Of a stretch of DNA of 64,000 nt, positions 9,090-53,603 are shown piece after piece. The DNA is from Candidatus Omnitrophota bacterium. Lineage in GTDB: Bacteria; Omnitrophota; Omnitrophia; Omnitrophales; Aquincolibacteriaceae. Every line of letters starts with the position of its first letter. Positions within the stretch are counted from its first letter, which is position 1. A program made the translations under genes and the position numbers. Location of the stretch: positions 66,005 through 130,004 of the forward strand of contig JAYTHE010000032.1 of NCBI GenBank assembly GCA_043732705.1, given 5' to 3'. The notes under the pieces were generated by a model, which was not told where the DNA came from, did not search any database, and worked only from the letters and a program-made list of their open reading frames with translations.

Positions 9090-9091
9090 TA

Positions 9092-40241: not shown

Positions 40242-42545
40242 GTGTTAACCACTTTCTATTCTCAAATTTTACGCTTAATCCGTAAATGGATTTCAGGAAG
40301 AGAGTTTTTTCTTTCGGCCGTAATTTTGGTTTCTCTGCTTTCGGTGAATTCATGGCTTTCTTTCCGCAATATCAATCTCGTGCGCCATGACGCCGAATTA
40401 GTTATTCATACCCAAAAAGTAATTAACGCTCTTGAGGCGGCGCTTTCATTTGCAAAAGATGCGGAGACCGGGCAGCGAGGCTATCTTCTTACCGGCAAAC
40501 AATCCTATCTCGAACCGTATAATCATGCGGTACCGGCCATTTATGGGCAATTGGCGCTGCTGAAACAATTGACCCGTGATAATGCATCGCAGCAGAAACG
40601 CCTGGATGAATTTAAAGCGCGCATTGGATTAAGGTTGAAAGTGCTGGATGAAGTTATCAATGCACAAGAAGGTTTACGCTATCAGTTTACCCGTAAGACT
40701 TTATTGGGCGACCGCGGCAAAGTCGAGATGGACGCCTTGCGCCGGCAGGCCGCTACCATTGAAAAGGTAGAACGCGATTTGTTAGAGCAAAGAACGGAAC
40801 GCTCCACTGTCTCATACCACATCGCGCTTTTCACCAGTTTTCTGTCAAGTTCGATCGGGTTAGGCTTGCTTGTCGCGTTTCTTTTTCTTTTAAGGAAACA
40901 TTTAATTTCTAAAGACAAAGATATGGCCGCGATTTTTGAGCAGCACGAAAGATTTCGAATCACAATCGGAAGTATCGGCGATGCGGTTCTGACCACAGAT
41001 ACACAGGGCCGCGTTACATACTTAAATGAAATTGCGCAAAAATTGACAGGCTGGAAAGAAAAAGATGCTTTCGGGAAGCCTCTAGAGGTAGTTCTTCACA
41101 TTTTAAATGAAAGTTCCCGCCGTATTGTTGAAAGCCCCGCATATCAGGCGTTAAGAGAAGGCACCATTGTCGGGCTGGCTTATGGGACGCTTCTGATCGC
41201 GAAGGACGGAAAAGAAATTCAAATCGAGGACAGTGCCGCACCGATCCGCAATCAGCAAGGTGATGTTGTGGGGGTTGTGCTCGTGTTCCGGGATGTAACT
41301 GATCGTAAAAAATCAGAAGCTGTTTTACTCGAAAGCGAAAAGCGTTATCGACAGTTAATTCAAGGTCTGCCCGCAGCTGTTTATACCTGTGATGCTGACG
41401 GCTACATTATGCTTTATAACCCCGCAGCGGCTGTGCTTTGGGGCCGGGAACCCGAGTTGGGGAAAGAGCTGTGGTGCGGCTCGCATCGAATCTATAGGTC
41501 AAACGGAGAACCTCTCCCGTTAGAGCAATGCCCCATGGCCGTTGTTTTGGAAGGAAAAGAGCCGAAGCGCGGTCAGGAAATTATTATTGAAAGGCCCGAT
41601 GGTACGCGGCGGAATGTTCTACCTTATCCCCAGGCGATTCTTAATAAAGACGGAATTCTCATGGGTGCGATTAACATGCTTGTGGATATCACCGAGCGTA
41701 AAAAAGCAGAGCAAGATTTAATCCGCACGGCCAAAGAGCTTGCAGCTTCAAACACTGAATTAGAAAAAGCGAATATACAGCTTAAGAAATCGACGCATGA
41801 ACTTGAACTGGCAAATATAAGCCTAAAAAAACTCGATGAGATGAAAACGAATTTTATTGCGATCGCATCGCATGAACTCAAGACCCCTCTGACCGCGATG
41901 AAAGGTTTTTTAAGTTTAGTCATCGAAGGCGCGAACGGAAAGCTGCGAGCCGCACAAAAGGAAAGTTTACTTTTTGTAAAAGAAGGCAGTGATCGAATGC
42001 ACCGGCTGATTGACAGTCTATTGAATCTATCGAAAATGGAGCTTGGGCAAATGCCGATGAAAATGAGCGAGAAGGTAAGTGTTAAGAGAATTTTGAGCGA
42101 GACCGTGCGAACATTTCATAATTTAGCCGAAAAGAAGAGCATTTCAATTCAAGAGGAAGTCGAAAGTGATTTAAAAGAAGTTTGTGGCGACGAAGACCGT
42201 TTACGGGAAGTGTTTGATAATCTTGTTTCCAATGCTCTGAAATATACTCCACGTGGCGGAACTATTTGGATTCGAGCGAAAAATAATTCAAAAAAAGTAG
42301 AAATTAAAATTGAAGATACCGGAATTGGAATGAGAAAAGAAGATCTTTGTAAAATATTTGAACCTTTCCAGCACTTGAGGCGCAGCGGCTTGGAAGGCGA
42401 AGAAAGCACCGGATTGGGTTTAGCGTTAGTCAGAAAAATTATCGATGCGCATGGCGGAGAAGTTCAAGTTGAAAGCGTGCTCGGAAAAGGTTCGATTTTT
42501 ATGGTGCTGCTTCCGCAAAAAAATTTGATGGAGGCGGCGCGATGA
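40242..42545 (+). CDS. sensor histidine kinase: CHASE3 - TM - 2x PAS - HisKA - HATPase_c
   Basis: GTG start; CHASE3-like N-terminus, PAS blocks, H-box IASHELKTPLTAMKG, G-boxes. Confidence 0.85.
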   Translation: MLTTFYSQILRLIRKWISGREFFLSAVILVSLLSVNSWLSFRNINLVRHDAELVIHTQKVINALEAALSFAKDAETGQRGYLLTGKQSYLEPYNHAVPAIYGQLALLKQLTRDNASQQKRLDEFKARIGLRLKVLDEVINAQEGLRYQFTRKTLLGDRGKVEMDALRRQAATIEKVERDLLEQRTERSTVSYHIALFTSFLSSSIGLGLLVAFLFLLRKHLISKDKDMAAIFEQHERFRITIGSIGDAVLTTDTQGRVTYLNEIAQKLTGWKEKDAFGKPLEVVLHILNESSRRIVESPAYQALREGTIVGLAYGTLLIAKDGKEIQIEDSAAPIRNQQGDVVGVVLVFRDVTDRKKSEAVLLESEKRYRQLIQGLPAAVYTCDADGYIMLYNPAAAVLWGREPELGKELWCGSHRIYRSNGEPLPLEQCPMAVVLEGKEPKRGQEIIIERPDGTRRNVLPYPQAILNKDGILMGAINMLVDITERKKAEQDLIRTAKELAASNTELEKANIQLKKSTHELELANISLKKLDEMKTNFIAIASHELKTPLTAMKGFLSLVIEGANGKLRAAQKESLLFVKEGSDRMHRLIDSLLNLSKMELGQMPMKMSEKVSVKRILSETVRTFHNLAEKKSISIQEEVESDLKEVCGDEDRLREVFDNLVSNALKYTPRGGTIWIRAKNNSKKVEIKIEDTGIGMRKEDLCKIFEPFQHLRRSGLEGEESTGLGLALVRKIIDAHGGEVQVESVLGKGSIFMVLLPQKNLMEAAR

Positions 42546-42925
42546 AAAAGCATATTCTTATTGTCGAAGATGACTTTGCGATCGGCAAGCTCCTTCAAAT
42601 GTCTTTTACGCATGCAGGATTTACCGTTTCTTTGGCGCGCGATGAAGCCTCTTTTTGCGAGTTGGCGAAAAATACATCCCCCGATTTTATTTTGCTTGAT
42701 CTGATGATTAACAATCGAAAAAGCATCGAATTTTATGAGGCATTAGTTGAAGAAGGGTTGAATCCGCATATCCCGGTGATTGTTTTGACAGCGTCTGTCC
42801 AGGGATTGGTTTCTGTGAAAGGCCCCTCCGGAAAATCTTATCGGGCCTTCGGCAAGCCTTTCGAAACTAAAAACCTGATTGAATTAGTGGGTTCTTCTTT
42901 TTCAGTCAAGCCTTCGAAAGCCTAA
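42542..42925 (+). CDS. single-domain response regulator (receiver only), paralog family member
   Basis: ILIVEDDF...ILLDLMI...; ATGA overlap with the kinase. Confidence 0.75.
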   Translation: MKKHILIVEDDFAIGKLLQMSFTHAGFTVSLARDEASFCELAKNTSPDFILLDLMINNRKSIEFYEALVEEGLNPHIPVIVLTASVQGLVSVKGPSGKSYRAFGKPFETKNLIELVGSSFSVKPSKA

Positions 42926-43056
42926 AAAACCCGTGTAAAAGTGTCTCGTCTTTCGTACAGAATTCTTAAAAATCTGACACATTTCAGCCGCACAAAACAG
43001 CTCTTTTAAGAAATAATATTTTTGTTCCCAATAAGAAGCATGCGCAGTGGCCGAGC

Positions 43057-43072
43057 TGGCACTCCTGATGCT
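43057..43072 (+). promoter_or_regulatory. candidate sigma-54 promoter (TGGCAC-N5-ATGCT)
   Basis: cTGGCACtcctgATGCt, GG-N10-GC spacing correct; ~120 nt upstream of the ferritin-like gene. Confidence 0.4.
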
Positions 43073-43191
43073 ACTCTGATGTTGGGGTTTTCTCAAAGAA
43101 TGAGCTTCAGACGCTTGCCGATGGGGGCTAAAAATGAACAATGAAGATTGGGATTTAGAATAATTCAATTGAATATTATTCGAATTTTTAA

Positions 43192-43788
43192 ATGAAAAAG
43201 GAAAAAATGAAAAATAAAGGTTCTGATTTGGAGCAAAAATCAAAAAGCCGGTTTGTGATGGATGTAAAGGAAATCCGCCGCCGCGCCCGCAAACATGTCG
43301 AAGAAGGTGCTGTCACGGAAGGTTACGAAGGTGACCGCAAGACTATCTTAAAGCTGCTCAATGATGCGCTTGCGACCGAAATTATTTGTGTATTACGCTA
43401 CAAGCGCCATTATTTCATGGCGCAAGGCATTCATGCGAAACCGATTGCTGAAGAATTCCAGGAGCATGCCACTGAAGAACAGGCGCATGCCGACAGTATC
43501 GCGGAAAGAATTATGCAGCTGGGCGGTGAACCTGACCTGAATCCTGAAGGCTTGACTACCCGCAGCCACTCACAGTATGTGGAAGGCGAGTCTTTGCTTG
43601 ATATGGTTAAAGAAGATTTGGTTGCGGAAAGAATCGCGATTGATTCTTACAAAGAAATCATCGCCTATGTCGGCGGCAAAGACCCGACGACCCGCCGTCT
43701 TATGGAGGAAATTCTTTCGAAGGAAGAAGAACATGCGGATGATATGGCGGATATTTTGGCGGCCCTAGATCCGGCCAAAAAAATGTGA
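43192..43788 (+). CDS. bacterioferritin/ferritin-like di-iron protein
   Basis: Ferritin-like four-helix bundle with paired E..H ligand motifs (EIICVLRY...EEQAHADSIAERI). Confidence 0.65.
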   Translation: MKKEKMKNKGSDLEQKSKSRFVMDVKEIRRRARKHVEEGAVTEGYEGDRKTILKLLNDALATEIICVLRYKRHYFMAQGIHAKPIAEEFQEHATEEQAHADSIAERIMQLGGEPDLNPEGLTTRSHSQYVEGESLLDMVKEDLVAERIAIDSYKEIIAYVGGKDPTTRRLMEEILSKEEEHADDMADILAALDPAKKM

Positions 43789-43812
43789 CGGTAAAACGGT
43801 AAAGATTAATTT

Positions 43813-43998
43813 ATGGAATTGATTTTTGAGTGGATAGCGTGGTTTGCCTTGTTCTTGGGATGTATTTTTATTTTATGGAAACTGTACTTATTCACGACGT
43901 GGAACATTGAGAGAACTGTTTTTCTTGGCGGAATCGGCGCTTATCTGGGTTCGAAGTCAAAAAACGCGCGGAAGAAGCAAGCCGTGGCCGCGAAATGA
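43813..43998 (+). CDS. hypothetical small membrane protein (61 aa)
   Basis: Two hydrophobic helices; stop overlaps the GT4 start (ATGA). Confidence 0.3.
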   Translation: MELIFEWIAWFALFLGCIFILWKLYLFTTWNIERTVFLGGIGAYLGSKSKNARKKQAVAAK

Positions 43999-45266
43999 AA
44001 ATATTGATGGTGACGAACACCTATTTAAATGTGGTGGGTGGCCTTGAAAAATCAATCCAGTCTTTTACGCAAAAATTAAGAGAATTGGGACACAAGGTAT
44101 TGATCGCCGGTCCTGACTTTGTCGGCGAAGAAATCGGCGGCAGCAAGGGGGCTCATCCTTTAGCGGACAAATATGCGCCAGTGGTTTTTCCTTTTCGTGG
44201 GAAACTTGAAAAAATTATTGCTCAATTTAATCCTGATGTCATCCACGCCCACCATCCTTTTTTAATGGGAGAAATGGCTTTGCGCTTCTCGGCCTATTAC
44301 GCGCGGCCCGTTATTTTTACTTACCATATTATGTTCAATCAATACGCGCATTATTTACCGTCTGTGTCTTCGTGCCTTTCCGGAACTTTCTTGGTGGAAA
44401 TGGCTGCGGGATTTTGCAATCTTTCAACCCGGGTGATTGCGCCGAGCGAAAGCGTACGTAAAATTTTATGCGATCAAGGCGTTAAAAAACCAATTGATGT
44501 CGTTCCAACCGGAGTTGATATCGCAAAGTTTTCGCGCGGGAACCGTGAAAAAAAGAGAAGAGAACTTGGTTTATCAAAAGAATCGATTCTGCTCGGTTAT
44601 GTGGGGCGTCTCGCGCCCGAGAAAAACCTTGAATTTTTGACAGCTCAGGTTGCACAGTTAATGAACACAAATAAAAATGTTCACTTTCTTGTCGTTGGGA
44701 AAGGTCCTTCCGAAAAAGATTTGGAGAAAGCCTTTAGCCATATGGATATATTGCCGCGTCTTCACTTTTTGGGTGCGCTTCAAGGGCAGGATTTGGTGGA
44801 TTGCTACCATGCAATGGACGTGTTTGTGTTTGCGTCCAAAAGCGAAACTCAAGGTTTGGTTCTCTGCGAAGCGATGGCAGCGGGAGTGCCTGTGGTAGCT
44901 TTGGATGCGCCGGGAGTCCGTGAAGTTGTCAAGGATTTTGAAAATGGCCGGCTAATCTCCGGCGGACATGAAGAGGAGTTTCAATCCGCCTTGGTGTGGT
45001 GCGTGAGCCAGGAGGGCAGGAAGCTTATTCAGTTGAAACAAAACGCCCGGGAAACCGTCAACGCTTTCGGACTTGAAATTTGCGCGGTTCGCGCGCTGGA
45101 GACATATCGTTCAGCTATGCAAGATTATTCTTGTCTTAAAAATGCTCATAAAAACAGAGAGCTAAAGTTATGGCAGTGTTTTCGGATTGAATTGAAAATA
45201 GCGGGTAATTTTCTCCGCTCTTTTTTTCGTGCAGTGAGTAAGACGCTTTTTAAACAAGCAGCCTGA
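43995..45266 (+). CDS. GT4-family glycosyltransferase, paralog 1
   Basis: MKILMVTNTY..VGGLEKSIQ N-terminus; E-x7-E region ...FASKSETQGLVLCEAMAAGVPVVA. Confidence 0.8.
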   Translation: MKILMVTNTYLNVVGGLEKSIQSFTQKLRELGHKVLIAGPDFVGEEIGGSKGAHPLADKYAPVVFPFRGKLEKIIAQFNPDVIHAHHPFLMGEMALRFSAYYARPVIFTYHIMFNQYAHYLPSVSSCLSGTFLVEMAAGFCNLSTRVIAPSESVRKILCDQGVKKPIDVVPTGVDIAKFSRGNREKKRRELGLSKESILLGYVGRLAPEKNLEFLTAQVAQLMNTNKNVHFLVVGKGPSEKDLEKAFSHMDILPRLHFLGALQGQDLVDCYHAMDVFVFASKSETQGLVLCEAMAAGVPVVALDAPGVREVVKDFENGRLISGGHEEEFQSALVWCVSQEGRKLIQLKQNARETVNAFGLEICAVRALETYRSAMQDYSCLKNAHKNRELKLWQCFRIELKIAGNFLRSFFRAVSKTLFKQAA

Positions 45267-45276
45267 GGAGGGCATA

Positions 45277-45402
45277 ATGAAAAGGTTTATGTTGGTTTTA
45301 ATCATGATTCTTTTTGTGGGAGCATTCAATGGTTGTCATAGCGGAACGATGCGTGGAGTCGGTTCGGACATTTCGAGGGTCGGAGACCACTTGCAGAAAT
45401 AA
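45277..45402 (+). CDS. entericidin-like small lipoprotein, paralog 2 (41 aa)
   Basis: MKRFMLVLIMILFVGAFNGCHSGTMRGVGSDISRVGDHLQK; RBS gaggaggg. Confidence 0.7.
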   Translation: MKRFMLVLIMILFVGAFNGCHSGTMRGVGSDISRVGDHLQK

Positions 45403-45484
45403 ATGAACAGATTTATTGCCTGCAAGCTAAACGCAAGAGTACCTTTTATTTCTTTTTAGGAAACAGTACAATATGTTTTAACTT

Positions 45485-45895
45485 ATGGATCAAAAGAAAA
45501 GTGCTCCCGATGCGGGAGTGGTTAAACCCAGAGTTCTTGTCGTGGATGACGAGCAGTCCATGCGGCGTCTTTTGTGCCATACTCTCTCTCTCTCCGGCTT
45601 TAATATTTCAACTGCAGCTAATGCGGCAGAATTTCGTGAGCAAGTTTTTATTCAAAAACCAGAGGTTATTATTCTCGATATTTTGCTGGGTGACCATAAC
45701 GGTCCCGAAGTTTATTTGGAACTGCTGGATGAGGGCTTGGATTCAAATATTCCCGTCATTTTTCTTTCGGCACTGATTGAAAAAAGGTGGATGCCCAAAT
45801 CGATTGAGAGTAACCCGCGCCATGCATTTATCAGCAAGCCGTTTGAGTACCAAGAACTAATACTCAAATTGCGAGAGTTTGCGGCGCTTAAATAA
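45485..45895 (+). CDS. single-domain response regulator (receiver only), paralog family member
   Basis: VLVVDDEQ...IILDILLGDHNGPEVY...IPVIFLSAL. Confidence 0.75.
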   Translation: MDQKKSAPDAGVVKPRVLVVDDEQSMRRLLCHTLSLSGFNISTAANAAEFREQVFIQKPEVIILDILLGDHNGPEVYLELLDEGLDSNIPVIFLSALIEKRWMPKSIESNPRHAFISKPFEYQELILKLREFAALK

Positions 45896-48779
45896 TAAGT
45901 GGGGGATTGCTTTTACCGTGCCAAAGCAGAGTTCTTTTTTAAATCGTCTCCGTTTGAGTAACCTTCTTATTCCTCGGAAGCTGGGCCTGATTGTGGCTAT
46001 TTTTTCGCTTATCATTTGCGCCCTGCTTTCAGTCAATCTCTTTGGAATGGGGGTTCTCTCCGATGTTCGTGCTTATGTTGCCGGTGAAGGAATATGGTCA
46101 AAATCACAAAAAGAAGCCGTTTATGCATTGATGCGGTATGTGATTTTTTATCAGGAAAAAGATTATCAGAATTATTTGGACCATCTCAAAGTTCCTCTGG
46201 GGGACCGTAAAGCCTTAATCGAGCTTTCAAAGCCCAACCCTGACTTTCTCGTTGTGGATGCCGGCTTTATTGAAGGTCAAAATCATCCGCGTGATGTGCG
46301 TGGCATGGGGTATTTATTTAAGCGTTTTTATTTTATTTCTTATATTCGTGATGCCATTCAAGCCTGGAAAGAAGCGGATCAGCTGCTGAATGAATTGATT
46401 CGAGCGGGAGAAGAAGTCAGGAAATATGTCCGGTCCGGAAATGTCACTGAAGAGAAAACGACGCAGTTTTTAGAACGCATAGATAAAATCAATAATACCT
46501 TGGCGCCGCTTGAAGATTCATTTTCTTATCGGTTAGGGGAAGGTGCACGGTGGCTTGTCAGCCTGTTGGTTTGTGTGATGTTCGGGGTTACAGGTATACT
46601 GTTGATTCTAGGAATTATTATCGCAAATTTTATTGCGCGCCAGCTGATCCAGGAAATATACCGGCTTAGAAACGCGGCGGCCAAAATTGCCGAGGGGGAT
46701 TACAGTCAGCCGATAGAAAATCACACCTTGGATGAAGTCGGGGACCTTGCCCGGAGCTTTCAGCAAATGGCGGCTCAGCGACAACACGCGGAAAGAGTTA
46801 AAAATGAATTTTTTGCGACCGTTTCTCATGAACTTCGTACGCCCTTAACATTAGTGCTGACACCGCTTGAATCGCTTTTAATGGGCGAATATGGCCCGTT
46901 ATCGGAACCCGCGCAGCGGATTTTGGGAACGATGCACAATAACGCGATACGACTGCTTCAGATGGTGACCGGGCTGCTTGATTTCTCAAAATTTGAAGCC
47001 GGGCGGATGGAAGTTAAGCGTGAAGATACCGATATCATCGGGGTTACGCAGTCGATTCTCGATGATTTTACGGCCATTGTCAGCCAGAAAAAAATAAAAG
47101 TTCGGCTGAGCGCAAATCAGCCCTCTATTTCGGTTCTTATGGATCGTTATTTTTACGAGCGAATTTTATTTAATCTTCTTTCCAATGCGGTTAAATTTAC
47201 ACCCGAAGAAGGTGAAATTTCTGTTGCGCTTGAACTGCGCGGTGAATATTTGCGCTTGGTGGTTTGTGATACTGGCATTGGCATCTCGGAAGAAAATCAA
47301 AAAATCCTGTTTGAAAAATTTAAACAGCTTGAAGGCGCATCAACACGGCGCTTTGAAGGAACTGGCCTGGGGCTTGCTTTAGTCAAAGAATTTTCCGAAC
47401 TTCTTGGCGGACAGGTTTTGGTTCACAGCGAAGCCGGAAAAGGATCGACATTTACCGTGGAGTGTTTTGCCCCGGCCGCAGCGTCTGTGGCAAAGATCGA
47501 AACTGTGCGTCCCAAAAGAAAACTGGTTCAGCAATTTCCGGTGAATACGGAGTTATCACTCATTTCCGATTCAGTTGATAGGAAGGAATTACCCAAACTT
47601 CTGATTGCTGAAGATAATCCCGAGCTGGCGTTTTATTTGTCCGAGCAGATGCAGGATATTGCGCGCTTAAAAATCGCGAAAGACGGGGAAGAAGCATTGA
47701 AGCTTGCCGAAGAATGGCTGCCTGATCTTGTTCTTTCTGATGTCATGATGCCCAAATTAGACGGAATCGCCCTATGCCGGGCGATTAAAAGCCATCCGAA
47801 AATGGCTTACATTCCGGTTATTTTGCTGACCGCATTGACTTACCGGGATGCTCTTTTAAAAGGATGGGAAGCGGGCGCGGACGAGTATTTGTTTAAACCT
47901 TTTCACCCCACTGAACTTTTAACACGGGTTAAATCCGTGCTTGAAAATTGCAAAGAGCGCCGTGAAACACAAATTGCGCTTAAAGAGTCACACGACCAGC
48001 TTGAAGTCAAAGTCCGCGAGAGAACCGAGGAGCTTCTCGGGGCGAATGAGCGTTTAAAAGAGCTGGATGAATTAAAAACACAATTTATTTTGACCGCGTC
48101 GCATGAGCTCAGGACTCCGCTAACGTCGATTAAGGGCTATGTTGAAATGGTTTTGTACGGTGAGGCGGGCGCGCTCAATGACGAACAAAAAGAGTTTTTG
48201 GGATATGTCAAGGACTCCACCGACCGTTTGCAGCGTTTACTGCGCGAACTTTTGGATATTTCAAAAATAGAATCCGGCGGAGTAGCCATGCATCGGGAAT
48301 TTACTGATATGCGGATTTTAATTAAAGAAGAGCAGGCTCTTTTTAAAGCGCAGGCGCTGGATAAAAAAATTCAGATTCTGATGGATGTTGATCCGGAGTT
48401 AAAGTTTATTTTTTGTGATTCGGATAAAATTCGCGAGGTTTTGGATAATTTGCTCAGCAATGCCATAAAATATACACCCGCAAAAGGGCAAATTAAAATT
48501 TTCGCGCAAAACCAGGAGCATGGAATTTTAATTGGTGTTCAGGATAATGGCATTGGAATTAAAAAGAAAGACCACCGCCTGATTTTTGAACCTTTTCAAC
48601 ATTTGGGAAAGAATGGAACGAATGCCTCAGAGGAAAGTACGGGTTTGGGTTTAACGCTTGTTGAAAAAATTGTTGAAGCGCATGGCGGGCAAGTTCAGGT
48701 CCAAAGCGAAGAGGGTCAAGGCGCGCTTTTTACTGTAAACTTACCTTTCGATATGAATGAAAAAAAACAACCGGAGTAA
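45879..48779 (+). CDS. hybrid sensor kinase with two transmitter modules: sensor-TM-HAMP-HisKA-HATPase-REC-coiled coil-HisKA-HATPase
   Basis: Two H-boxes (ATVSHELRTPLT; LTASHELRTPLTSIKGY), two G-box sets, and an internal receiver (LLIAEDNPE...LVLSDVMMPKLDG). TTG/GTG start uncertain. Confidence 0.85.
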   Translation: MRRLNNKWGIAFTVPKQSSFLNRLRLSNLLIPRKLGLIVAIFSLIICALLSVNLFGMGVLSDVRAYVAGEGIWSKSQKEAVYALMRYVIFYQEKDYQNYLDHLKVPLGDRKALIELSKPNPDFLVVDAGFIEGQNHPRDVRGMGYLFKRFYFISYIRDAIQAWKEADQLLNELIRAGEEVRKYVRSGNVTEEKTTQFLERIDKINNTLAPLEDSFSYRLGEGARWLVSLLVCVMFGVTGILLILGIIIANFIARQLIQEIYRLRNAAAKIAEGDYSQPIENHTLDEVGDLARSFQQMAAQRQHAERVKNEFFATVSHELRTPLTLVLTPLESLLMGEYGPLSEPAQRILGTMHNNAIRLLQMVTGLLDFSKFEAGRMEVKREDTDIIGVTQSILDDFTAIVSQKKIKVRLSANQPSISVLMDRYFYERILFNLLSNAVKFTPEEGEISVALELRGEYLRLVVCDTGIGISEENQKILFEKFKQLEGASTRRFEGTGLGLALVKEFSELLGGQVLVHSEAGKGSTFTVECFAPAAASVAKIETVRPKRKLVQQFPVNTELSLISDSVDRKELPKLLIAEDNPELAFYLSEQMQDIARLKIAKDGEEALKLAEEWLPDLVLSDVMMPKLDGIALCRAIKSHPKMAYIPVILLTALTYRDALLKGWEAGADEYLFKPFHPTELLTRVKSVLENCKERRETQIALKESHDQLEVKVRERTEELLGANERLKELDELKTQFILTASHELRTPLTSIKGYVEMVLYGEAGALNDEQKEFLGYVKDSTDRLQRLLRELLDISKIESGGVAMHREFTDMRILIKEEQALFKAQALDKKIQILMDVDPELKFIFCDSDKIREVLDNLLSNAIKYTPAKGQIKIFAQNQEHGILIGVQDNGIGIKKKDHRLIFEPFQHLGKNGTNASEESTGLGLTLVEKIVEAHGGQVQVQSEEGQGALFTVNLPFDMNEKKQPE

Positions 48780-48790
48780 TCAATAAAGTT

Positions 48791-50149
48791 ATGAATAAAA
48801 CTGTTCTTGTTGTGGATGATGACAGTCGAATCGCGAATCTCATTTCGACTCGCTTAAAGAAGCAAGGATATTTGCCCGTGATTGTTGAAGATGGCAACAG
48901 CGCGATTGAATGGGTCGAGCGTAATGAAGCGGCATTGATTATGTTGGATGTCCGGCTTCCAGATATTAACGGTGTTGATGTGTTAAGACAAATCATCAAA
49001 AAGAAACCGGGTCTATTTGTAATTATGATTAGTGCGCATGCGGACGTTCAAAACGCGGTGGAATGTATCAAAATCGGAGCCACGGACTTTCTTGAAAAGC
49101 CGTTTGAATTTCCTACCTTTGACGCAAAAGTGAAGCAGATTTTTCAGCAGCTGGGATTAAAGGCCGAGGTTGCCGCTTTAAAACAGGAATTAGGAATTAC
49201 TTATAAAGATAAAAGTTTAATCGGAAAAAGCCCCGCGATGATTAAGGTTTTTCAATCGATTGGCATCGCGGCAAAAAGTGAAGCCAGTGTCTTGATTCAC
49301 GGAGAAAGCGGAACAGGAAAAGAGCTTGTTTCAAGAGCAATTCATTTTAACGGGACACAAAAACAGGGCCCTTTTATGGCGGTGAATTGCGGAGCCATTC
49401 CGGAAAACCTTCTTGAAAGTGAATTATTTGGACATGAGAAGGGATCTTTTACGGGCGCGGTAGGCCGTAAGCTGGGAAAATTCGAGGAAGCGCAAAACGG
49501 AACTATATTTTTAGATGAAATCGGGGAAATGCCACTGTCATTGCAGGTTAAATTGCTGCGGGTGCTGCAAGAGCGAGAAATCGTCCGCGTGGGCGGAACG
49601 GTCTCCATTCCCATTCATGCCCGCTTTATTACGGCGACAAACCGCGATTTAAAGAAAATGGTGCAAGAAGGGTTGTTCCGCGAAGATCTTTATTACCGGA
49701 TCAATGTATTTCCGATTCGTTTGCCGCCCTTACGCGAAAGAAAAGAGGATATTACAGATCTTTTCCGCCACTTCGTAAACCGGCATAGCGAAGGCAAAGC
49801 GTCGGTTAAGACAGATGAAGGCGCGTTAAGAAGACTGGAAGAGTATGACTGGCCCGGAAATATCCGCGAGCTAGAAAATTTTGTCGAACGTCTTTTGCTT
49901 TTATTGGGAGAAAAAAATCACATTACCGAAAAAGATATCGATGCTATGGATGGATTAAGCGATGCTCCTGCTTCAGAAAAAGCCGAAGCGCCTAAAGAAA
50001 GAGCTCAGGTGTTGGGCGAGACGGAGCGGGCAATTCTTGAAAAGGCATTGCAAGACGCCAATGGTAATATTGCTAAGGCTTCTAAGCTTGTTCAGATGAG
50101 CCGTGATTCTTTTTATCGGAAGATGAAAAAATATTCAATTGCCCGGTAA
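48791..50149 (+). CDS. sigma-54-dependent response regulator (NtrC family: REC - AAA+ - Fis-type HTH)
   Basis: GESGTGKE Walker A, GSFTGA (GAFTGA-type) motif, C-terminal HTH. Confidence 0.9.
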   Translation: MNKTVLVVDDDSRIANLISTRLKKQGYLPVIVEDGNSAIEWVERNEAALIMLDVRLPDINGVDVLRQIIKKKPGLFVIMISAHADVQNAVECIKIGATDFLEKPFEFPTFDAKVKQIFQQLGLKAEVAALKQELGITYKDKSLIGKSPAMIKVFQSIGIAAKSEASVLIHGESGTGKELVSRAIHFNGTQKQGPFMAVNCGAIPENLLESELFGHEKGSFTGAVGRKLGKFEEAQNGTIFLDEIGEMPLSLQVKLLRVLQEREIVRVGGTVSIPIHARFITATNRDLKKMVQEGLFREDLYYRINVFPIRLPPLRERKEDITDLFRHFVNRHSEGKASVKTDEGALRRLEEYDWPGNIRELENFVERLLLLLGEKNHITEKDIDAMDGLSDAPASEKAEAPKERAQVLGETERAILEKALQDANGNIAKASKLVQMSRDSFYRKMKKYSIAR

Positions 50150-50467
50150 GTCTTATAACAAGAACGGCTGTTATCTCCATTTGTGCTTAAAACGCGCTAT
50201 GCGATGCGTTAAAGTCCGCTATTGCTAAGCTGGATGGGGCCGCGCTGAATTTTCCAGCCTGCATGGCTTCCCAAGGCTTTTCCTTCCTAGTCCGACAATT
50301 GCAAAAAACCGTCAGAGCCCTCTGACACTATTTTCTTAATTGAGATTTTTTCAAAAGACGTTTTTTTCTTAAGTTGTTTATCTGTATGAAGATATGACTT
50401 TGGCATGCGCCGTGGATATACAGAGTCAACGGAATGAAATACGTGAGGGAAAAAGGAGGGCTTGTTT

Positions 50468-51049
50468 ATGGAAAAGAGTCATTACGAACAAATCAAAAAT
50501 AATAATAATTTCAATTCATCGACGAGGGGATCCAAACGCAGACCACCGATGCAAAGTGAGTTTGATGAGCCTAAATTATCCTATTGCGATGTCCCTCAGC
50601 CGGCTGTAAGTGCTTGCGGGATAGCTCAATCGACAAATGCGCAAGCCTGTGATCAAACAGCTTATTCACGCTCGCAAGGAACTTCTGATCAGACTTTTAA
50701 AAATAAAAAAGATCAGAAAGACGCTGTGTCCCGTGAAGACTGGGAAGGCGGCGGGTCGCGTCCCGCGGCAGCATTCTCAGACGAAATGTTTCCCCATAAT
50801 AACCCTGCAAATGACTTACAGACACAAGCTGACAGTGTTCCAAAAGCTAAATATGGCGACTTTGGGCCGCCTAAAAATCTTCAATCGCTTCCGACCCAAA
50901 ATACGCATGAGCTGGCTGCGGAAGAGGAGCTTGATGATGAAGTGCGTGTAAAAGCAGCGAAGAACTCCGGAGAAGAAGTCCATTGGAACGAAAGAGCGGA
51001 CCGCCTTAAAAAGCGGGGAGAAGATTATAGAGGGCGTCGCAGTGCTTAG
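50468..51049 (+). CDS. intrinsically disordered hydrophilic protein, SREDWEGG / GPPKNLQSLPTQNTH family, paralog 2
   Basis: Shares SREDWEGGGSRP and GPPKNLQSLPTQNTH blocks with 38358..38699; RBS aaaggaggg. Confidence 0.55.
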   Translation: MEKSHYEQIKNNNNFNSSTRGSKRRPPMQSEFDEPKLSYCDVPQPAVSACGIAQSTNAQACDQTAYSRSQGTSDQTFKNKKDQKDAVSREDWEGGGSRPAAAFSDEMFPHNNPANDLQTQADSVPKAKYGDFGPPKNLQSLPTQNTHELAAEEELDDEVRVKAAKNSGEEVHWNERADRLKKRGEDYRGRRSA

Positions 51050-51155
51050 CATTACGTCCTCGGCGGAGAGTCAAGCTCCGCGTCAACCGAAGGAGATGGC
51101 GGGCTTCAAAAGCAGTAGTCCCGCCGCTCTTCTCGGAATAGTTAAGGAGGCTGTT

Positions 51156-51545
51156 ATGAATGAACGGATTTTAGTCATCGAAAACAGAGGGCCTAGCTAT
51201 CAAATTTTGAAGGATAAGTTGGAAGAAAAAGGCTGCGTTGTTTTAACGGCTCAAAACGAACACGAGTTTTGGGGGCATGCTTGCGAGACGAATGTTGAAT
51301 TAGTTCTTTTTGATATTTGCCTCAAGAACCGGCTCAGTTCCGAGGTTTACGCGGCAATTTTAAACTTTCAACAAAGCCGAAAAATCCCGGTCATTTTTAA
51401 GACCGGGATGACTGACCAGGACGAACACGGAGCCATGCTGTATGACGAGAACTATATTTTTTTTCCGGAACCGGTTGGTTTTGAGCGTCTCTATGTAGAA
51501 ATACAAAAACTACTTAATCAAAGACAGCTGGCCCATGCTGCCTAA
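51156..51545 (+). CDS. receiver-like single-domain protein with partly degenerate acidic pocket (EN in place of DD)
   Basis: MNERILVIENRGPS...LVLFDICL...IPVIFKTG; RBS aaggagg; paralogous to the other stand-alone receivers. Confidence 0.55.
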   Translation: MNERILVIENRGPSYQILKDKLEEKGCVVLTAQNEHEFWGHACETNVELVLFDICLKNRLSSEVYAAILNFQQSRKIPVIFKTGMTDQDEHGAMLYDENYIFFPEPVGFERLYVEIQKLLNQRQLAHAA

Positions 51546-51557
51546 GAGAAGGAAACA

Positions 51558-52043
51558 ATGAAAAAAATTTTAGTGGTGGATGATGAATGGGCCATTCTTG
51601 AACTTTTACGGATCAAACTTACAAAAAAGGGGTTTGATGTGATTACCGCGAGCAATGAAAAAGAGTTTTTTGAACAGGTTTTTGAAAATAAACCGGATTT
51701 GATTATTTTGGATATTTGGCTCGGGAACGAAGGCGGCGGAACGAAGCTTTATGACGTGGCGCTTGACGGAGGGCTTGATCCGGATGTTCCGGTTATTTTT
51801 ATGAGCGCACTTGTAGAAGAAGGTACGCCGCCCAAAAGAGCGTCCAAGGGAGGGCGTTTTGCTCTGTACGGCAAACCATTCGATTTTAATTTTTTGTTGG
51901 AAGACATTTATTGTTTAACGGGGGTTGAGTCGGGGTTGAATTCGGCGGAAGTTGACAGAGATAGGATTGGGAAGGCTGCAAATTTAGGGAAATATAAAAG
52001 TGGGTCGAATGGCGGGCCAGCCCCGCAGCTAAAAACCGGATAA
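51558..52043 (+). CDS. single-domain response regulator (receiver only) with Gly-rich C-terminal tail
   Basis: ILVVDDEW...IILDIWLGNEGGGTKLY...VPVIFMSAL. Confidence 0.75.
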   Translation: MKKILVVDDEWAILELLRIKLTKKGFDVITASNEKEFFEQVFENKPDLIILDIWLGNEGGGTKLYDVALDGGLDPDVPVIFMSALVEEGTPPKRASKGGRFALYGKPFDFNFLLEDIYCLTGVESGLNSAEVDRDRIGKAANLGKYKSGSNGGPAPQLKTG

Positions 52044-52154
52044 GGAAATGAAAGCAGATCAGGGAAATTTGCATATGTCAACTTAACGAGATTAAGGAGG
52101 AAGCAAAAATGAAATACTTAAAACTAAAAAAAAGAATGGGATTCTATTACAGTC

Positions 52155-52391
52155 ATGGCTTTTGTGATTGCCGTGAGCGTGCTAAGTGGTTGCGCAAGCC
52201 ATTCTAAAATTGTTCATACCGAAACGGTAAGCAATCCGCCGGCACAGACTGTAGTTGTGGAGCAACAAACAACCAAAACAACGGCAGAGAGCCACGACTC
52301 CGGAATTTTAGGTGGAGCTTTCCATGTCGTCGGGGAAGTTTTGGCATTTCCGTTTGTCGTTATCGCAGATGTTTTTCGTTTCATCTTTTAA
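52155..52391 (+). CDS. putative small lipoprotein (start ambiguous; A8 tract and strong RBS upstream)
   Basis: MAFVIAVSVLSGCASHS lipobox; alternative start ATG 52109 lies in another frame across an A8 run. Confidence 0.35.
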   Translation: MAFVIAVSVLSGCASHSKIVHTETVSNPPAQTVVVEQQTTKTTAESHDSGILGGAFHVVGEVLAFPFVVIADVFRFIF

Positions 52392-52411
52392 CAGATAAAA
52401 AGGAGTTATTT

Positions 52412-52645
52412 ATGAAAACTTACGCATCTTTAGGGCTTTTGATCGCAGCGATTGCTTTTTCAGGGTGCAGCGGAGCTTTTTGGGGTGGAACGGCAGCCGG
52501 AGCAGCAGGCGGAGCGGCCGGTTATGAAGTCAATTCCAAAGTGCAAATGGACCGCTTGAATAAGGATCTTGCCGCGGGACGTATCAATCAACAGGAATAT
52601 GACATTCGCAAAGATCAAATTCAACGGGGTTCGGTTTTCTATTAA
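52412..52645 (+). CDS. small lipoprotein with Gly/Ala linker and SHOCT-like C-terminal motif, paralog 2
   Basis: Lipobox FSGC; ...LNKDLAAGRINQQEYDIRKDQIQ; paralog of 38822..39058. Confidence 0.55.
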   Translation: MKTYASLGLLIAAIAFSGCSGAFWGGTAAGAAGGAAGYEVNSKVQMDRLNKDLAAGRINQQEYDIRKDQIQRGSVFY

Positions 52646-52693
52646 TCGCTTTATTCGGTAACAGAACGTTGAAAGCAAAGGAGGCTGGTTACG

Positions 52694-52867
52694 TTGAATT
52701 GGGCAATTAGTTTTTTGATTATCGCATTGGTTGCTGCGATTTTAGGATTTGGAGGTATTGCCGCAACTGCTGTGGATATGGCGAAGGTCGTATTCGTAGT
52801 TTTTCTGGTGCTGGCATTGCTTTCAGGTTTGATCGGCATTTTCCAGGGTAAGGGGCCGCGGGTTTAA
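52694..52867 (+). CDS. DUF1328-family small membrane protein (57 aa)
   Basis: [45 protein letters not shown]; TTG start 10 nt after aaggagg. Confidence 0.6.
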
Positions 52868-52898
52868 ATAAAAAAGAAGAAACAAACAAGGAGGAGTT

Positions 52899-53240
52899 AT
52901 GCAGACACACACTAAGGTAAATGAGAAAAAAGACAAAATTCATGATGCTCTTGAGCTGCTTAATGATGCGGCAAAAGAGAAAAAGGATGAAGTTTTTGAA
53001 GTGATCAACACTAAGTATGAACATGTCCGGGATATGTTCGCAGGCGCTGCCGAAAACGGACAGGCCATTGCAAAGGAAGCCAAGAAGCAGCTTTCAAAAA
53101 CGCTTCAAACGGAAAAGATAAAAATTAAACAAGTCGCGGGCGATCTGAATAAGAAAGTTCACAGAAGCCCATGGGCCTATTTAGGCGGCGCGGCATTAAG
53201 TTCTTTTGTCGTTGGAATTTTACTGGCGCGCAAAAAATGA
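52899..53240 (+). CDS. DUF883 (ElaB/YqjD/YgaM) membrane-anchored stress protein, paralog 1
   Basis: C-terminal PWAYLGGAALSSFVVGILLARKK matches the ElaB tail anchor. Confidence 0.75.
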   Translation: MQTHTKVNEKKDKIHDALELLNDAAKEKKDEVFEVINTKYEHVRDMFAGAAENGQAIAKEAKKQLSKTLQTEKIKIKQVAGDLNKKVHRSPWAYLGGAALSSFVVGILLARKK

Positions 53241-53383
53241 TTCCGACTTATATTGTGGCGCTGCTGGCGGACCTGGCTTTTTTGTTATGGCTCGCCAGCG
53301 GCTTAGCATTCAATTGGTTTGAAGATTTCCTGGGCTCGTCGGAAACGAAAGGAGCTTTTTATGAAAGCGAATCTGGATCTTAA
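53237..53383 (+). CDS. hypothetical small membrane protein (48 aa), translationally coupled to DUF883
   Basis: ATGA overlap with 52899..53240; one hydrophobic helix. Confidence 0.3.
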   Translation: MIPTYIVALLADLAFLLWLASGLAFNWFEDFLGSSETKGAFYESESGS

Positions 53384-53459
53384 CTGCGTCTCTATTTTTT
53401 TGGCAAGGCGAGGGGGATGTTGGTTTTTGATTTTCTGAAAAGCAAAATAAAGGGGATTT

Positions 53460-53585: not shown

Positions 53586-53603
53586 GCGGAGAAGCGGTGA
53601 TCT

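What the first reader, a model, noticed from the sequence alone, without database searches (positions are those of the whole stretch)
45879..48779. 966-aa hybrid kinase with two complete HisKA-HATPase transmitters flanking an internal receiver
Reading the protein gives TM - ~165-aa periplasmic domain - TM/HAMP - H-box1 (VSHELRTPLT) - ATPase1 - receiver (DVMMPKLDG) - coiled coil - H-box2 (ASHELRTPLTSIKGY) - ATPase2. Two full kinase cores in one polypeptide are uncommon. The arrangement implies either an intramolecular phosphorelay with branching or a kinase whose second transmitter is gated by the first. The NtrC-type activator gene follows 12 nt downstream. The periplasmic domain matches no family I recognise.
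Basis: seen in the sequence. Interest (0 to 1): 0.65.

Follow-up and report, generated by a model that had tools for sequence, protein, structure and literature searches.

The report
Double-kinase sensor with internal receiver
This gene encodes an intact membrane sensor protein with two complete histidine-kinase units either side of a receiver domain; it belongs to a widespread, unstudied family in which the first kinase most likely switches the second on or off through a rigid helix, so it is a variant of a known rare architecture rather than a new kind of system.

Summary
ORF 45879..48779 (+) is uninterrupted. Its order is TM, ~163-aa periplasmic domain, TM, HAMP, HisKA/HATPase_c, receiver, helical linker, HisKA/HATPase_c. 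Every catalytic motif is intact in both kinase cores. The real start is probably GTG 45918, giving 953 aa.

It is not a mis-assembly. 114 of the 120 best database relatives, from independent assemblies, have the same kinase-receiver-kinase order. H, N, G1, F and G2 residues are kept in at least 97% of them in both cores.

Two-transmitter hybrid kinases are rare but known. TodS is the studied case and works as a His-Asp-His-Asp relay. This protein is not TodS-like: it has no PAS domains, is membrane-bound, and has a sigma54-type partner.

The receiver-to-kinase-2 linker carries the S-helix 'ERT' signature. Linker lengths across relatives keep alpha-helical phase. Kinase 2 has been swapped between close relatives, and it is a paralog of a neighbouring PAS-kinase transmitter.

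Best reading (about 0.5): kinase 1 phosphorylates the receiver, which allosterically gates kinase 2. Kinase 2 then signals to the NtrC-type regulator and/or a small stand-alone receiver. A TodS-type relay remains possible.

The periplasmic domain is an unannotated helical bundle found in at least 472 species genomes.

The parts
45485..45895 (+). Stand-alone receiver gene (136 aa), directly upstream and probably co-transcribed. Candidate partner of kinase 2.
   Evidence: Pfam Response_reg, E 2e-17. The stop at 45893-45895 lies 22 nt before GTG 45918. A small stand-alone receiver gene is adjacent in 8 of 10 distinct kinase-receiver-kinase loci examined. It is 33% identical to REC 42542..42925 and 46% identical to REC 51558..52043.
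45879..48779 (+). Whole ORF of the double-transmitter hybrid kinase. It is 966 aa from TTG 45879; the probable real start is GTG 45918, giving 953 aa.
   Evidence: P0001 is 100% identical and 953 aa long.
45984..46061 (+). Transmembrane helix 1 (about residues 36-61).
   Evidence: Hydrophobic stretch LGLIVAIFSLIICALLSVNLFGMGVL. It forms one long helix in the AF2 model.
46062..46550 (+). Periplasmic all-helical sensor domain (about residues 62-224) with unknown ligand and no family model.
   Evidence: No Pfam, NCBIfam or PDB sequence hit. AF2 mean pLDDT is 85.8 and the model is all helices. The best fold match is the NarQ sensor-TM-HAMP fragment, probability 1.0, E about 0.02, TM 0.44-0.63. The domain is present in at least 472 species genomes.
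46551..46637 (+). Transmembrane helix 2 (about residues 225-253).
   Evidence: Hydrophobic stretch WLVSLLVCVMFGVTGILLILGIIIANFIA. It is continuous with the HAMP helix in the model.
46629..46775 (+). HAMP domain (residues 251-299).
   Evidence: Pfam PF00672, E 1.5e-11.
46779..47468 (+). Transmitter 1: DHp1 with His317 (46827-46829), and CA1 with N-box Asn432/436, G1 Asp464 and G2 Gly494/496/498.
   Evidence: Pfam HisKA and HATPase_c, two stretches each. Across 114 homologs, H is kept in 112 and N, G1 and G2 in all 114. This part fits hybrid-kinase models best: LvrA, TorS, LuxQ, BarA.
47469..47591 (+). Poorly conserved tether between CA1 and the receiver (residues 531-571).
   Evidence: Only 24-56% identity among close homologs whose domains are 70-88% identical. 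The G2-box-to-Asp spacing is a smooth spread of 117-138 residues. pLDDT is low.
47601..47933 (+). Internal receiver domain (residues 575-685) with Glu578/Asp579, phospho-acceptor Asp621, Thr651 and Lys673.
   Evidence: Pfam PF00072, E 1.1e-21. Across 114 homologs, Asp is kept in 112 and Thr and Lys in all 114. The domain is 54-85% identical across kinase-receiver-kinase relatives.
47934..48074 (+). Helical S-helix linker from receiver helix 5 to DHp2 (residues 686-732). The 'ERT' signature is at residues 714-716 (48018-48026).
   Evidence: The sequence LEVKVRERTEELLGANERL carries the S-helix signature defined in PMC1592074. The linker is 77-86% conserved among close homologs. ERT occurs in 27 of 34 homologs of the 62/69/76/83/90 length series. 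Linker lengths are periodic at 3.6 residues.
48075..48752 (+). Transmitter 2: HisKA2 (733-800, His742 at 48102-48104) and HATPase_c 2 (847-958), with N-box Asn857/861, G1 Asp889 and G2 Gly922/924.
   Evidence: Across 114 homologs, His, F-box and G2 are kept in all 114 and N and G1 in 111-114. This part fits canonical kinase models best: WalK, PnpS, PhoR. It is 47% identical over 260 aa to the transmitter of the PAS kinase at 40242..42545.
48791..50149 (+). NtrC-type sigma54-dependent response regulator gene (452 aa). Probable output of kinase 2.
   Evidence: Pfam Response_reg, Sigma54_activat, AAA_lid_14 and HTH_8. It scores below the curated cut-offs of all named NCBIfam equivalogs. The same gene order is present in the closest relative, L001, a Ca. 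Omnitrophota MAG.

Best explanation
This is a two-tier kinase cascade fused into one polypeptide.

Shown from sequence:
- The protein has a periplasmic helical-bundle sensor and a HAMP domain.
- A complete hybrid-type transmitter (His317) is joined by a loose tether to a complete receiver (Asp621).
- An S-helix-type coiled-coil linker runs from the receiver into a second complete, canonical-type transmitter (His742).
- A stand-alone receiver gene lies upstream and an NtrC-type regulator gene lies downstream.

Inferred mechanism:
1. An unknown periplasmic signal sets the autokinase activity of transmitter 1 through HAMP.
2. His317~P is passed within the dimer to Asp621, as in ordinary hybrid kinases.
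3. Phosphorylation of the receiver changes the packing of the S-helix coiled coil. The receiver occupies the position that a PAS input domain holds in the paralogous kinase at 40242..42545.
4. This shifts transmitter 2 between kinase and phosphatase states. Transmitter 2 uses its own ATP.
5. His742~P is delivered to the NtrC-type activator, which drives sigma54-dependent transcription, and/or to the small receiver.

In this reading the receiver acts as the input domain of kinase 2, not as a relay station.
For: 1. Both ATP-binding domains are under selection. In 114 kinase-receiver-kinase relatives whose second core is only 23-39% identical, His2 is kept in 114, N-box in 111-114, G1 in 113-114, and F-box and G2 in 114. 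A pure phosphotransfer role for DHp2 would not need CA2.

2. The receiver-to-His2 linker carries the S-helix 'ERT' signature (RERT, residues 713-716). In the S-helix family the receiver always lies upstream of the helix and the kinase downstream, and the helix is proposed to act as a conformational switch (PMC1592074).

3. Receiver-Lys-to-His2 distances in 137 distinct relatives fall in discrete classes (43, 51, 58, 62, 69, 76, 79, 83, 90).
- The strongest periodicity is at 3.6 residues: vector strength 0.61, against a maximum of 0.25 in 5000 jittered controls.
- Counting each length class only once gives p about 0.03-0.045.
- The ERT-bearing linkers form an exact +7 series, with Arg-to-His2 distances of 20, 27, 34, 41 and 48.
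- The CA1-to-receiver tether shows no such quantisation.

4. Among close homologs the linker is conserved at 77-86%, like the folded domains. The CA1-receiver tether is only 24-56%.

5. DHp1 partner-specificity positions (H+7, +8, +11, +12, +15) are near-invariant and co-conserved with the receiver. The same positions in DHp2 vary at 2.3-3.4 bits although the receiver stays the same.

6. Kinase 2 is swappable. P0006 and P0007 share 40-79% identity through sensor, HK1, receiver and S-helix, but only 21-32% in HK2. The break falls right after the S-helix.

7. HK2 plus its linker is 47% identical over 260 aa to the transmitter of the PAS kinase at 40242..42545. That kinase is translationally coupled to a small receiver paralogous to the one at 45485.

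8. 45 of the 114 relatives carry a further C-terminal receiver after kinase 2. Kinase 2 therefore has its own downstream acceptor in those proteins.

9. There is a split precedent. CheA3 phosphorylates the receiver of the receiver-kinase CheS3, and only CheS3 phosphorylates the single-domain CheY3 (PMC3868531).
Against: - No experiment exists for any member of this family.
- The only characterised kinase-receiver-kinase protein, TodS, uses a His1-Asp1-His2-Asp2 relay while keeping two active autokinases (PMC4321377, PMC3018481). A conserved CA2 therefore does not exclude a relay.
- The AF2 monomer model did not predict a continuous helix. Residues 690-711 of the 953-aa numbering have pLDDT below 50 and are modelled as coil. 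The alignment is gappy there, so the result is inconclusive.
- Tethering is known to relax specificity constraints in hybrid kinases (own knowledge: Capra et al. 2012). This weakens the DHp2-variability argument.
- Linker-length statistics are inflated by shared ancestry. The class-level test is only p about 0.03-0.05.
- Which of the two adjacent receivers, the NtrC-type or the small one, is served by kinase 2 is not established. The NtrC neighbour is seen only in the window and its closest relative.
Confidence: 0.5

Rival explanations
1. TodS-type four-step phosphorelay. His317~P goes to Asp621, then to His742, where DHp2 acts like an HPt domain, then to the aspartate of the NtrC-type regulator. 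CA2 provides only basal or auxiliary autophosphorylation.
For: TodS has the same kinase-receiver-kinase order and was shown to work this way (PMC4321377). The 2010 census argued that transmitter-receiver-transmitter-receiver relays may be common, and RedE accepts phosphate from a receiver (PMC3018481). About 11 of 114 relatives have PAS or GAF domains between the receiver and kinase 2, a TodS-like layout. All phospho-acceptor residues are present.
Against: - If the roughly 50-residue S-helix/DHp helix is continuous, the receiver sits about 75 Å from His742. It could not easily dock on DHp2 (inference).
- Linker lengths keep helical phase.
- The DHp2 docking surface is not co-conserved with the invariant receiver.
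- Kinase 2 has been exchanged without change in the receiver.
- All CA2 catalytic residues are conserved.
- The protein lacks the PAS domains that define the TodS family.
Confidence: 0.27
2. Two largely independent signalling units fused by chance or for co-localisation. HK1 and the receiver form a self-contained hybrid module, acting for example as a phosphate sink or as a signal to the small receiver. HK2 is a constitutive or separately regulated kinase/phosphatase for the NtrC-type regulator. There is no communication through the linker.
For: The sensor-HAMP-kinase module also exists alone or with only a receiver in many Bacteroidota, often next to a small receiver gene. HK2 is a paralog of a separate kinase in the same window.
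Against: - Among cluster representatives at least 50% identical over the HK1-receiver module, 76 of 83 have a second kinase directly after the receiver. Three of the seven exceptions have 92-146 residues after the receiver, which may mean they are cut at a contig end (not checked).
- Linker conservation, the ERT signature and helical-phase quantisation are not expected for a passive connector.
- HK2 has no input domain other than the receiver.
Confidence: 0.1
3. Assembly artefact or gene-fusion error: two adjacent genes, a hybrid kinase and a kinase, joined by a mis-assembly or frameshift near 47.9 kb.
For: None was found. Read coverage could not be inspected.
Against: - The same order occurs in 114 of the 120 best relatives from NCBI, JGI, ENA and Logan assemblies.
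- The closest relative, a Ca. Omnitrophota MAG at 79% identity, has the same gene and synteny.
- There is no composition break at 47.5-48.1 kb.
- The junction is a conserved S-helix.
Confidence: 0.01

Closest known systems
TodS / TmoS / StyS 'double sensor kinases' (Pseudomonas; TodS-TodT)
   Same: One polypeptide carries two complete autokinase modules separated by one receiver domain, in the order transmitter-receiver-transmitter, and signals to a separate response regulator (PMC4861429, PMC4321377, PMC3018481).
   Different: - TodS is cytosolic. It has a PAS domain in front of each kinase, so PAS2 lies between the receiver and kinase 2. According to the cited papers it regulates aromatic degradation.
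- Here there are two TM helices, a periplasmic helical bundle, HAMP and no PAS.
- Here the receiver is joined to kinase 2 by an S-helix, and the neighbouring regulator is sigma54/NtrC-type.
- The TodS mechanism, a His-Asp-His-Asp relay, is not established here and is disfavoured by linker geometry.
CheA3 - CheS3 - CheY3 cascade of Rhodospirillum centenum
   Same: Kinase 1 phosphorylates the receiver domain of a receiver-kinase protein. This controls kinase 2, which alone phosphorylates a single-domain receiver (PMC3868531). It has the same logic as the proposed model, and a small stand-alone receiver is likewise the conserved neighbour.
   Different: It is a split system of separate proteins with a chemotaxis-type CheA as kinase 1. 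Here everything is fused and kinase 1 is a HisKA-type membrane sensor.
S-helix (signaling helix) linkers of sensor kinases, cyclases and receiver-output proteins
   Same: The linker is a roughly 40-residue heptad helix with a central 'ERT' signature, placed between an upstream receiver and a downstream histidine kinase (PMC1592074).
   Different: In the published survey the upstream element is normally the only input. Here the receiver upstream of the S-helix is itself fed by a kinase in the same chain.
NarX/NarQ-type TM - helical-bundle - TM - HAMP sensor modules
   Same: The topology matches, and NarQ is the best structural match for the AF2 model (5jgp, 5jeq; probability 1.0, TM 0.44-0.63).
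   Different: Sequence identity is 13-16% and E is only about 0.02. The domain is about 50 residues larger and has two extra short helices carrying the family's most conserved motif (GF.EG.NHP.DVRGM). Nothing indicates nitrate sensing.

Membership tests
HisKA-type histidine kinase (transmitter 1) | H-box histidine in a DHp domain, plus N, G1, F and G2 boxes of the GHKL ATPase. | tested here: met
   Pfam HisKA and HATPase_c. His317, Asn432/436, Asp464-x-Gly-x-Gly, the F-box and Gly494/496/498 are present and kept in 107-114 of 114 homologs.
HisKA-type histidine kinase (transmitter 2) | H-box histidine in a DHp domain, plus N, G1, F and G2 boxes. | tested here: met
   Pfam reports second stretches of HisKA (733-800) and HATPase_c (847-958). 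His742, Asn857/861, Asp889, the F-box and Gly922/924 are kept in 111-114 of 114 homologs.
Hybrid histidine kinase (kinase + receiver) | A receiver domain with an acidic pair, a phospho-acceptor Asp, and conserved Thr and Lys, tethered to the transmitter. | tested here: met
   Pfam Response_reg 575-685. Glu578/Asp579, Asp621, Thr651 and Lys673 are kept in 112-114 of 114. The best NCBIfam alignments over residues 285-692 are to hybrid kinases, all below their curated cut-offs.
TodS-like double sensor kinase family | Two kinase modules separated by a receiver domain. | tested here: met
TodS-like double sensor kinase family | Each supradomain contains a PAS sensor domain (PAS1 N-terminal, PAS2 between the receiver and kinase 2). 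| tested here: not met
   No PAS family matches the protein at E up to 1. Only a 47-residue helix lies between the receiver and HisKA2.
TodS-like double sensor kinase family | Soluble protein with no transmembrane region. The architecture is said to occur exclusively in kinases regulating degradation pathways (PMC4861429). | tested here: not met
   Two hydrophobic helices flank a periplasmic domain and a HAMP domain follows. The partner gene is NtrC-type, and the neighbours are glycosyltransferase, ferritin-like and receiver genes, not catabolic genes.
TodS-like double sensor kinase family | His1-Asp1-His2-Asp2 phosphorelay through the second DHp. | not testable with these tools
   This needs in vitro phosphotransfer with His317Ala, Asp621Ala, His742Ala and CA2-dead variants.
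S-helix (signaling helix) | A roughly 40-residue heptad coiled coil with a central 'ERT' signature (Arg at a 'd' position), located between an upstream receiver or sensor and a downstream kinase. | tested here: met
   The sequence is LEVKVRERTEELLGANERL, with hydrophobic residues in a heptad frame running from the receiver helix to DHp2. ERT occurs in 27 of 34 homologs of the +7 length series. The definition is from PMC1592074. No profile search against an S-helix model was possible.
NarX/NarQ four-helix-bundle nitrate sensors | Periplasmic four-helix bundle with the conserved P-box ligand site. | tested here: inconclusive
   Fold-level similarity only: Foldseek E about 0.02, TM 0.44-0.63, 13-16% identity. 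No sequence match. The P-box was not examined.
NtrC-family sigma54-dependent response regulator (neighbour 48791..50149) | Receiver + AAA+ sigma54-interaction domain + Fis-type HTH. | tested here: met
   Pfam Response_reg, Sigma54_activat, AAA_lid_14 and HTH_8. Named equivalogs (AtoC, NtrC, ZraR and others) all score below their curated cut-offs, so the regulator has no assigned regulon.

The most novel reading that the evidence does not exclude
The protein represents a large uncharacterised family with a conserved cassette: input, HK1, receiver and S-helix. The cassette acts as a portable 'kinase-driven input module' that can be bolted onto unrelated output kinases. That would be an intramolecular kinase-to-kinase allosteric cascade, mechanistically distinct from the TodS relay. 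It would give thresholding or amplification, and a second ATP-dependent checkpoint, within one polypeptide. The family is also coupled to a widespread periplasmic helical sensor domain (at least 472 species) that has no family model or known ligand.
Probability: 0.45. Interest if true: 0.55.

Novelty: new variant of a known kind. Interest (0 to 1): 0.4.

Why it matters
Histidine kinases with two transmitters are usually discussed through one example, TodS. One paper describes that architecture as exclusive to kinases regulating degradation pathways.

This locus shows a separate, much broader lineage. It occurs in Omnitrophota, Elusimicrobiota, Planctomycetota, Bdellovibrionota, Myxococcota and others. 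Its sequence features point to a different logic: a kinase whose only input domain is a receiver phosphorylated by another kinase in the same chain.

If confirmed, this would be a compact natural example of a two-tier kinase cascade in bacteria. It would also be a ready-made modular part for synthetic signalling, because the cassette is already found fused to many different output kinases.

The sensor domain is a good candidate for a new family definition. For the biology of this particular organism, however, the finding is one more two-component system of unknown signal and unknown regulon.

Tried and rejected
- Mis-assembly or fusion artefact: rejected on comparative grounds.
- Degenerate second core: rejected.
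- Membership of the TodS family: rejected because there are no PAS domains and the protein is membrane-bound.
- Sequence searches of the periplasmic domain against Pfam, NCBIfam and PDB gave only chance-level hits: JetA at E 0.033, a PHA-granule protein at E 0.003 but 17.6 bits against a cut-off of 94.7, and phage scaffolding protein at E 1.1. A Pfam scan of 40 homologs also found nothing on that region.
- The exact-sequence contig look-up for P0001 found nothing, and the cluster look-up gave no names.
- The AF2 full-length monomer did not resolve the receiver-to-DHp2 linker (pLDDT below 50), so it neither supports nor refutes a continuous helix.
- A sigma54 -24/-12 scan of the window showed no enrichment: 24 sites against 35.7 expected. 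The one 1-mismatch site in an intergenic position is only a lead.
- The promoter/terminator scan was not above chance for terminators.
- I asked whether the upstream small receiver is the ancestral partner of the sensor-HK1 module, as in Bacteroidota sensor-kinase loci. It is not orthologous to those receivers. It groups instead with the window's other small receivers.
- Busch et al. 2009, the primary TodS relay paper, is not held. The mechanism is cited through later papers by the same group.


Full report

The window has one uninterrupted frame at 45879..48779 (+), 966 codons.

Pfam places the following, all far above gathering thresholds:
- HAMP at residues 251-299.
- Two HisKA matches; the second is at 733-800.
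- Two HATPase_c matches; the second is at 847-958.
- One Response_reg at 575-685.

They are VSHELRTPLT (His317), LSDVMMPKLDG (Asp621) and ASHELRTPLTSIKGY (His742).

Both ATPase domains have intact N, G1, F and G2 boxes:
- Core 1: LFNLLSNAVKF, CDTGIGI, LFEKF, GTGLGL.
- Core 2: LDNLLSNAIKY, QDNGIGI, IFEPF, STGLGL.

Two hydrophobic helices, at about 36-61 and 225-253, bracket a periplasmic stretch of about 163 residues.

The identical database protein (P0001) has 953 residues, and homolog N-termini align with it. The real start is therefore most likely GTG 45918. That codon is preceded by GGGGGA at 45901-45906 and lies 22 nt after the stop of the upstream receiver gene.

The NtrC-type gene (REC, Sigma54_activat, AAA_lid_14, HTH_8) starts 11 nt after the kinase stop.

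**2. Is it an artefact or degenerate?**

No. I mapped the domains of the 120 best database relatives. 114 have the order kinase-receiver-kinase: 69 KRK, 44 KRKR and 1 KRKRR. They come from NCBI, JGI, ENA and Logan assemblies.

In these 114, catalytic residues are kept as follows:

| Element | Residue | Kept (of 114) |
|---|---|---|
| Core 1 | His1 | 112 |
| Core 1 | N, G1, G2 boxes | 114 |
| Receiver | Asp | 112 |
| Receiver | Thr, Lys | 114 |
| Core 2 | His2 | 114 |
| Core 2 | N-box | 111-114 |
| Core 2 | G1 | 113-114 |
| Core 2 | F-box, G2 | 114 |

The closest genome match is a Candidatus Omnitrophota MAG: 79% identity for the protein and 80% for the sensor. It has the same synteny: GT4 glycosyltransferase, small receiver, KRK kinase, NtrC-type regulator, then two more small receivers. 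There is no GC or skew break near 47.9 kb.

**3. What kind of family is it?**

The HK1-receiver block is a tightly conserved cassette, 52-65% identical across all relatives. Outside the five nearest relatives, the second kinase is only 23-39% identical.

I ran an exhaustive HMMER search of 1.84 billion cluster representatives with the HK1-receiver block alone. Of the representatives at least 50% identical over the block, 76 of 83 have another kinase core directly after the receiver. Three of the seven exceptions have 92-146 residues after the receiver, which may mean they are cut at a contig end; I did not check this. The cassette is thus almost always coupled to a second kinase.

NCBIfam alignments show the two halves are of different types:
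- Residues 285-692 align best with hybrid kinases (LvrA, TorS, LuxQ, BarA).
- Residues 725-960 align best with canonical kinases (WalK, PnpS, PhoR).
- All scores are below the curated cut-offs.

**4. The receiver-to-kinase-2 connection**

This is the most informative region.

(a) Its sequence, LKESHDQLEVKVRERTEELLGANERLKELDELK, carries the 'ERT' signature of the S-helix. That coiled-coil module is described as always having the receiver upstream and the kinase downstream, and as acting as a conformational switch (PMC1592074).

(b) Among close homologs the linker is as conserved as the folded domains, at 77-86%. The CA1-to-receiver tether is only 24-56%.

(c) Across 137 distinct relatives with short linkers, the distance from the receiver Lys to His2 falls into discrete classes: 43, 51, 58, 62, 69 (this protein), 76, 79, 83 and 90.
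- The dominant period is 3.6 residues, with vector strength 0.61 against a maximum of 0.25 in 5000 jittered controls.
- The signal is still present when each length class is counted once (p about 0.03-0.045).
- The ERT-bearing linkers form an exact +7 series: 27 of 34 members of the 62/69/76/83/90 classes, with Arg-to-His2 distances of 20, 27, 34, 41 and 48.

(d) The CA1-to-receiver spacing is a smooth, unquantised spread. That is expected for a flexible tether that lets the receiver dock on DHp1.

(e) The AF2 monomer model of the full protein (mean pLDDT 77) gives confident domains but low confidence (below 50) for 22 linker residues. I treat this as uninformative because the alignment is gappy there.

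**5. Who talks to whom?**

The partner-specificity positions of DHp helix 1 (H+7, +8, +11, +12, +15) are near-invariant in DHp1, in step with the conserved receiver. The same positions in DHp2 are highly variable, at 2.3-3.4 bits.

Kinase 2 has been exchanged during recent evolution:
- P0006 and P0007 keep 40-79% identity through sensor, HK1, receiver and S-helix.
- They fall to 21-32% in DHp2 and CA2.
- The break is immediately after the S-helix.

In the window, HK2 with its linker is 47% identical over 260 residues to the transmitter of the CHASE3-PAS-PAS kinase at 40242..42545. In that paralog a PAS domain occupies the position the receiver has here. That kinase is translationally coupled to a small receiver (42542..42925). 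This receiver is paralogous to the small receiver upstream of our gene, at 33% identity, and the upstream receiver is 46% identical to a further copy at 51558.

A small stand-alone receiver gene is adjacent in 8 of 10 distinct KRK loci examined (window, L001, L002, L004, L005, L014, L087, L088). None is adjacent in L036 or L086. An NtrC-type neighbour occurs only in the window and its nearest relative.

45 of the 114 relatives carry a further receiver fused after kinase 2.

**6. Mechanism**

Best-supported model (about 0.5):
1. A periplasmic signal acts through HAMP on HK1 autophosphorylation at His317.
2. Phosphate is transferred to Asp621 across the flexible tether.
3. Receiver phosphorylation is transmitted through the S-helix coiled coil. 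It sets the kinase/phosphatase state of HK2, which autophosphorylates His742 with its own ATP.
4. Phosphate is then transferred to the NtrC-type regulator and/or the small receiver.

The domain inventory, motif integrity, linker properties and paralogy are shown. Every phosphotransfer step and the direction of regulation are inferred.

The split CheA3-CheS3-CheY3 cascade is a functional precedent (PMC3868531).

The main rival (about 0.27) is a TodS-type His-Asp-His-Asp relay (PMC4321377, PMC3018481).
- It is favoured by precedent and by the roughly 11 relatives that carry PAS or GAF domains between the receiver and HK2.
- It is disfavoured by the rigid, phase-conserving linker, the lack of co-conservation between the receiver and DHp2, and the strict conservation of CA2.
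- Tethering can relax specificity (own knowledge), and TodS keeps both autokinases active. The relay is therefore not excluded, and the two models may coexist.

**7. The periplasmic domain**

There is no Pfam, NCBIfam or PDB sequence match for this protein or for 40 homologs.

An AF2 model of residues 14-300 (pLDDT 85.8) is all-helical. It has four long helices plus two short inserted helices that carry the most conserved motif, GF.EG.NHP.DVRGM.

The best structural match is the NarQ sensor-TM-HAMP fragment: probability 1.0, E about 0.02, TM 0.44-0.63, 13-16% identity. This shows the same topology but no evidence of the same ligand.

The domain is widespread. Most are Bacteroidota (Chitinophagaceae, Mucilaginibacter), where it fronts simple kinases (56 of 86 loci) or ordinary hybrid kinases (18). 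KRK versions occur in Omnitrophota, Elusimicrobiota and Planctomycetia, plus two metagenome contigs of unknown origin.

**8. Comparison with the known, and novelty**

Two-transmitter hybrid kinases were counted at 51 of 4650 hybrid kinases in 2010 (PMC3018481). The TodS-like family is the studied case, and its architecture has been described as exclusive to kinases regulating degradation pathways (PMC4861429).

The present protein fails the TodS membership tests: it has no PAS domains, is not soluble, and has a different regulator class. It shares only the transmitter-receiver-transmitter order.

An orphan HK-RR-HK in Myxococcus (MXAN_2606) is noted as uncharacterised. I found no experimental work on this lineage in the searchable library.

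I therefore rate it a new variant of a known kind, with moderate interest (0.4). The architecture itself is catalogued. The indication of an in-cis kinase-gates-kinase design, the portability of the cassette and the unannotated sensor domain are the parts worth following.

**9. Limits**

- There are no read data, no experiments and no dimer model.
- Statistics on homologs are affected by shared ancestry.
- The output regulon is unknown. A sigma54-type -24/-12 scan shows no enrichment and gives only one 1-mismatch intergenic site, at 43057-43072 upstream of a ferritin-like gene.

Noticed in passing
window 40242..42925 (+): A CHASE3-PAS-PAS histidine kinase (767 aa) overlaps by 4 nt with a 127-aa stand-alone receiver gene. 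Its transmitter is 47% identical to transmitter 2 of the double kinase, so the two systems are paralogous at the output end.
   Followed up: partly
window 42542..42925, 45485..45895, 51042..51545, 51558..52043 (+): Four small stand-alone receiver genes lie within 10 kb and form a paralogous group at 29-46% identity. The two at 51042 and 51558 are tandem, and the same tandem pair is present in the Omnitrophota relative L001.
   Followed up: partly
window 35798..59443: The region looks like a stress and regulatory island. It contains a triple-BON protein (35798..36637, minus strand), a HisKA_3 kinase with a LuxR-type regulator (36784..38243), two ferritin-like genes (43192..43788 and 54825..55469), and two GT4 glycosyltransferase paralogs (43995..45266 and 57875..59443). 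A 771-aa protein with no Pfam hit lies at 55563..57878.
   Followed up: partly
window 38358..38699 and 50462..51049 (+): Two ORFs with no Pfam match share the motif REDWEGG.SRP and the ending P.NLQSLPTQ.TH, so they appear to be paralogs of unknown function. One sits just downstream of the NtrC-type gene.
   Followed up: no
window 52899..53240 and 53953..54294 (+): Two paralogous 113-aa ORFs have a C-terminal hydrophobic segment and no Pfam hit. Similar unannotated 113-aa genes are called in the relative L001.
   Followed up: no
window 43057..43072 (+): The sequence TGGCACTCCTGATGCT is a one-mismatch match to the sigma54 -24/-12 consensus, about 120 nt upstream of the ferritin-like gene at 43192. 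It is a possible target of the NtrC-type regulator. Such sites are not enriched in the window: 24 found against 35.7 expected.
   Followed up: no
L002/L003 (Omnitrophica GWA2_52_12 relative), positions 1632-9511: The KRK gene sits in a run of two-component genes on one strand: HAMP-kinase, receiver-GGDEF, receiver-kinase, small receiver, KRK, receiver. This suggests a larger multi-kinase network ending in c-di-GMP signalling in that organism.
   Followed up: no
DHp1 of the family (window 46827..46880): Transmitter 1 has an invariant second proline at His+12 (HELRTPLTL.L.P.E; 114 of 114 homologs). This implies a kinked DHp helix 1 that is characteristic of this hybrid-kinase lineage.
   Followed up: no
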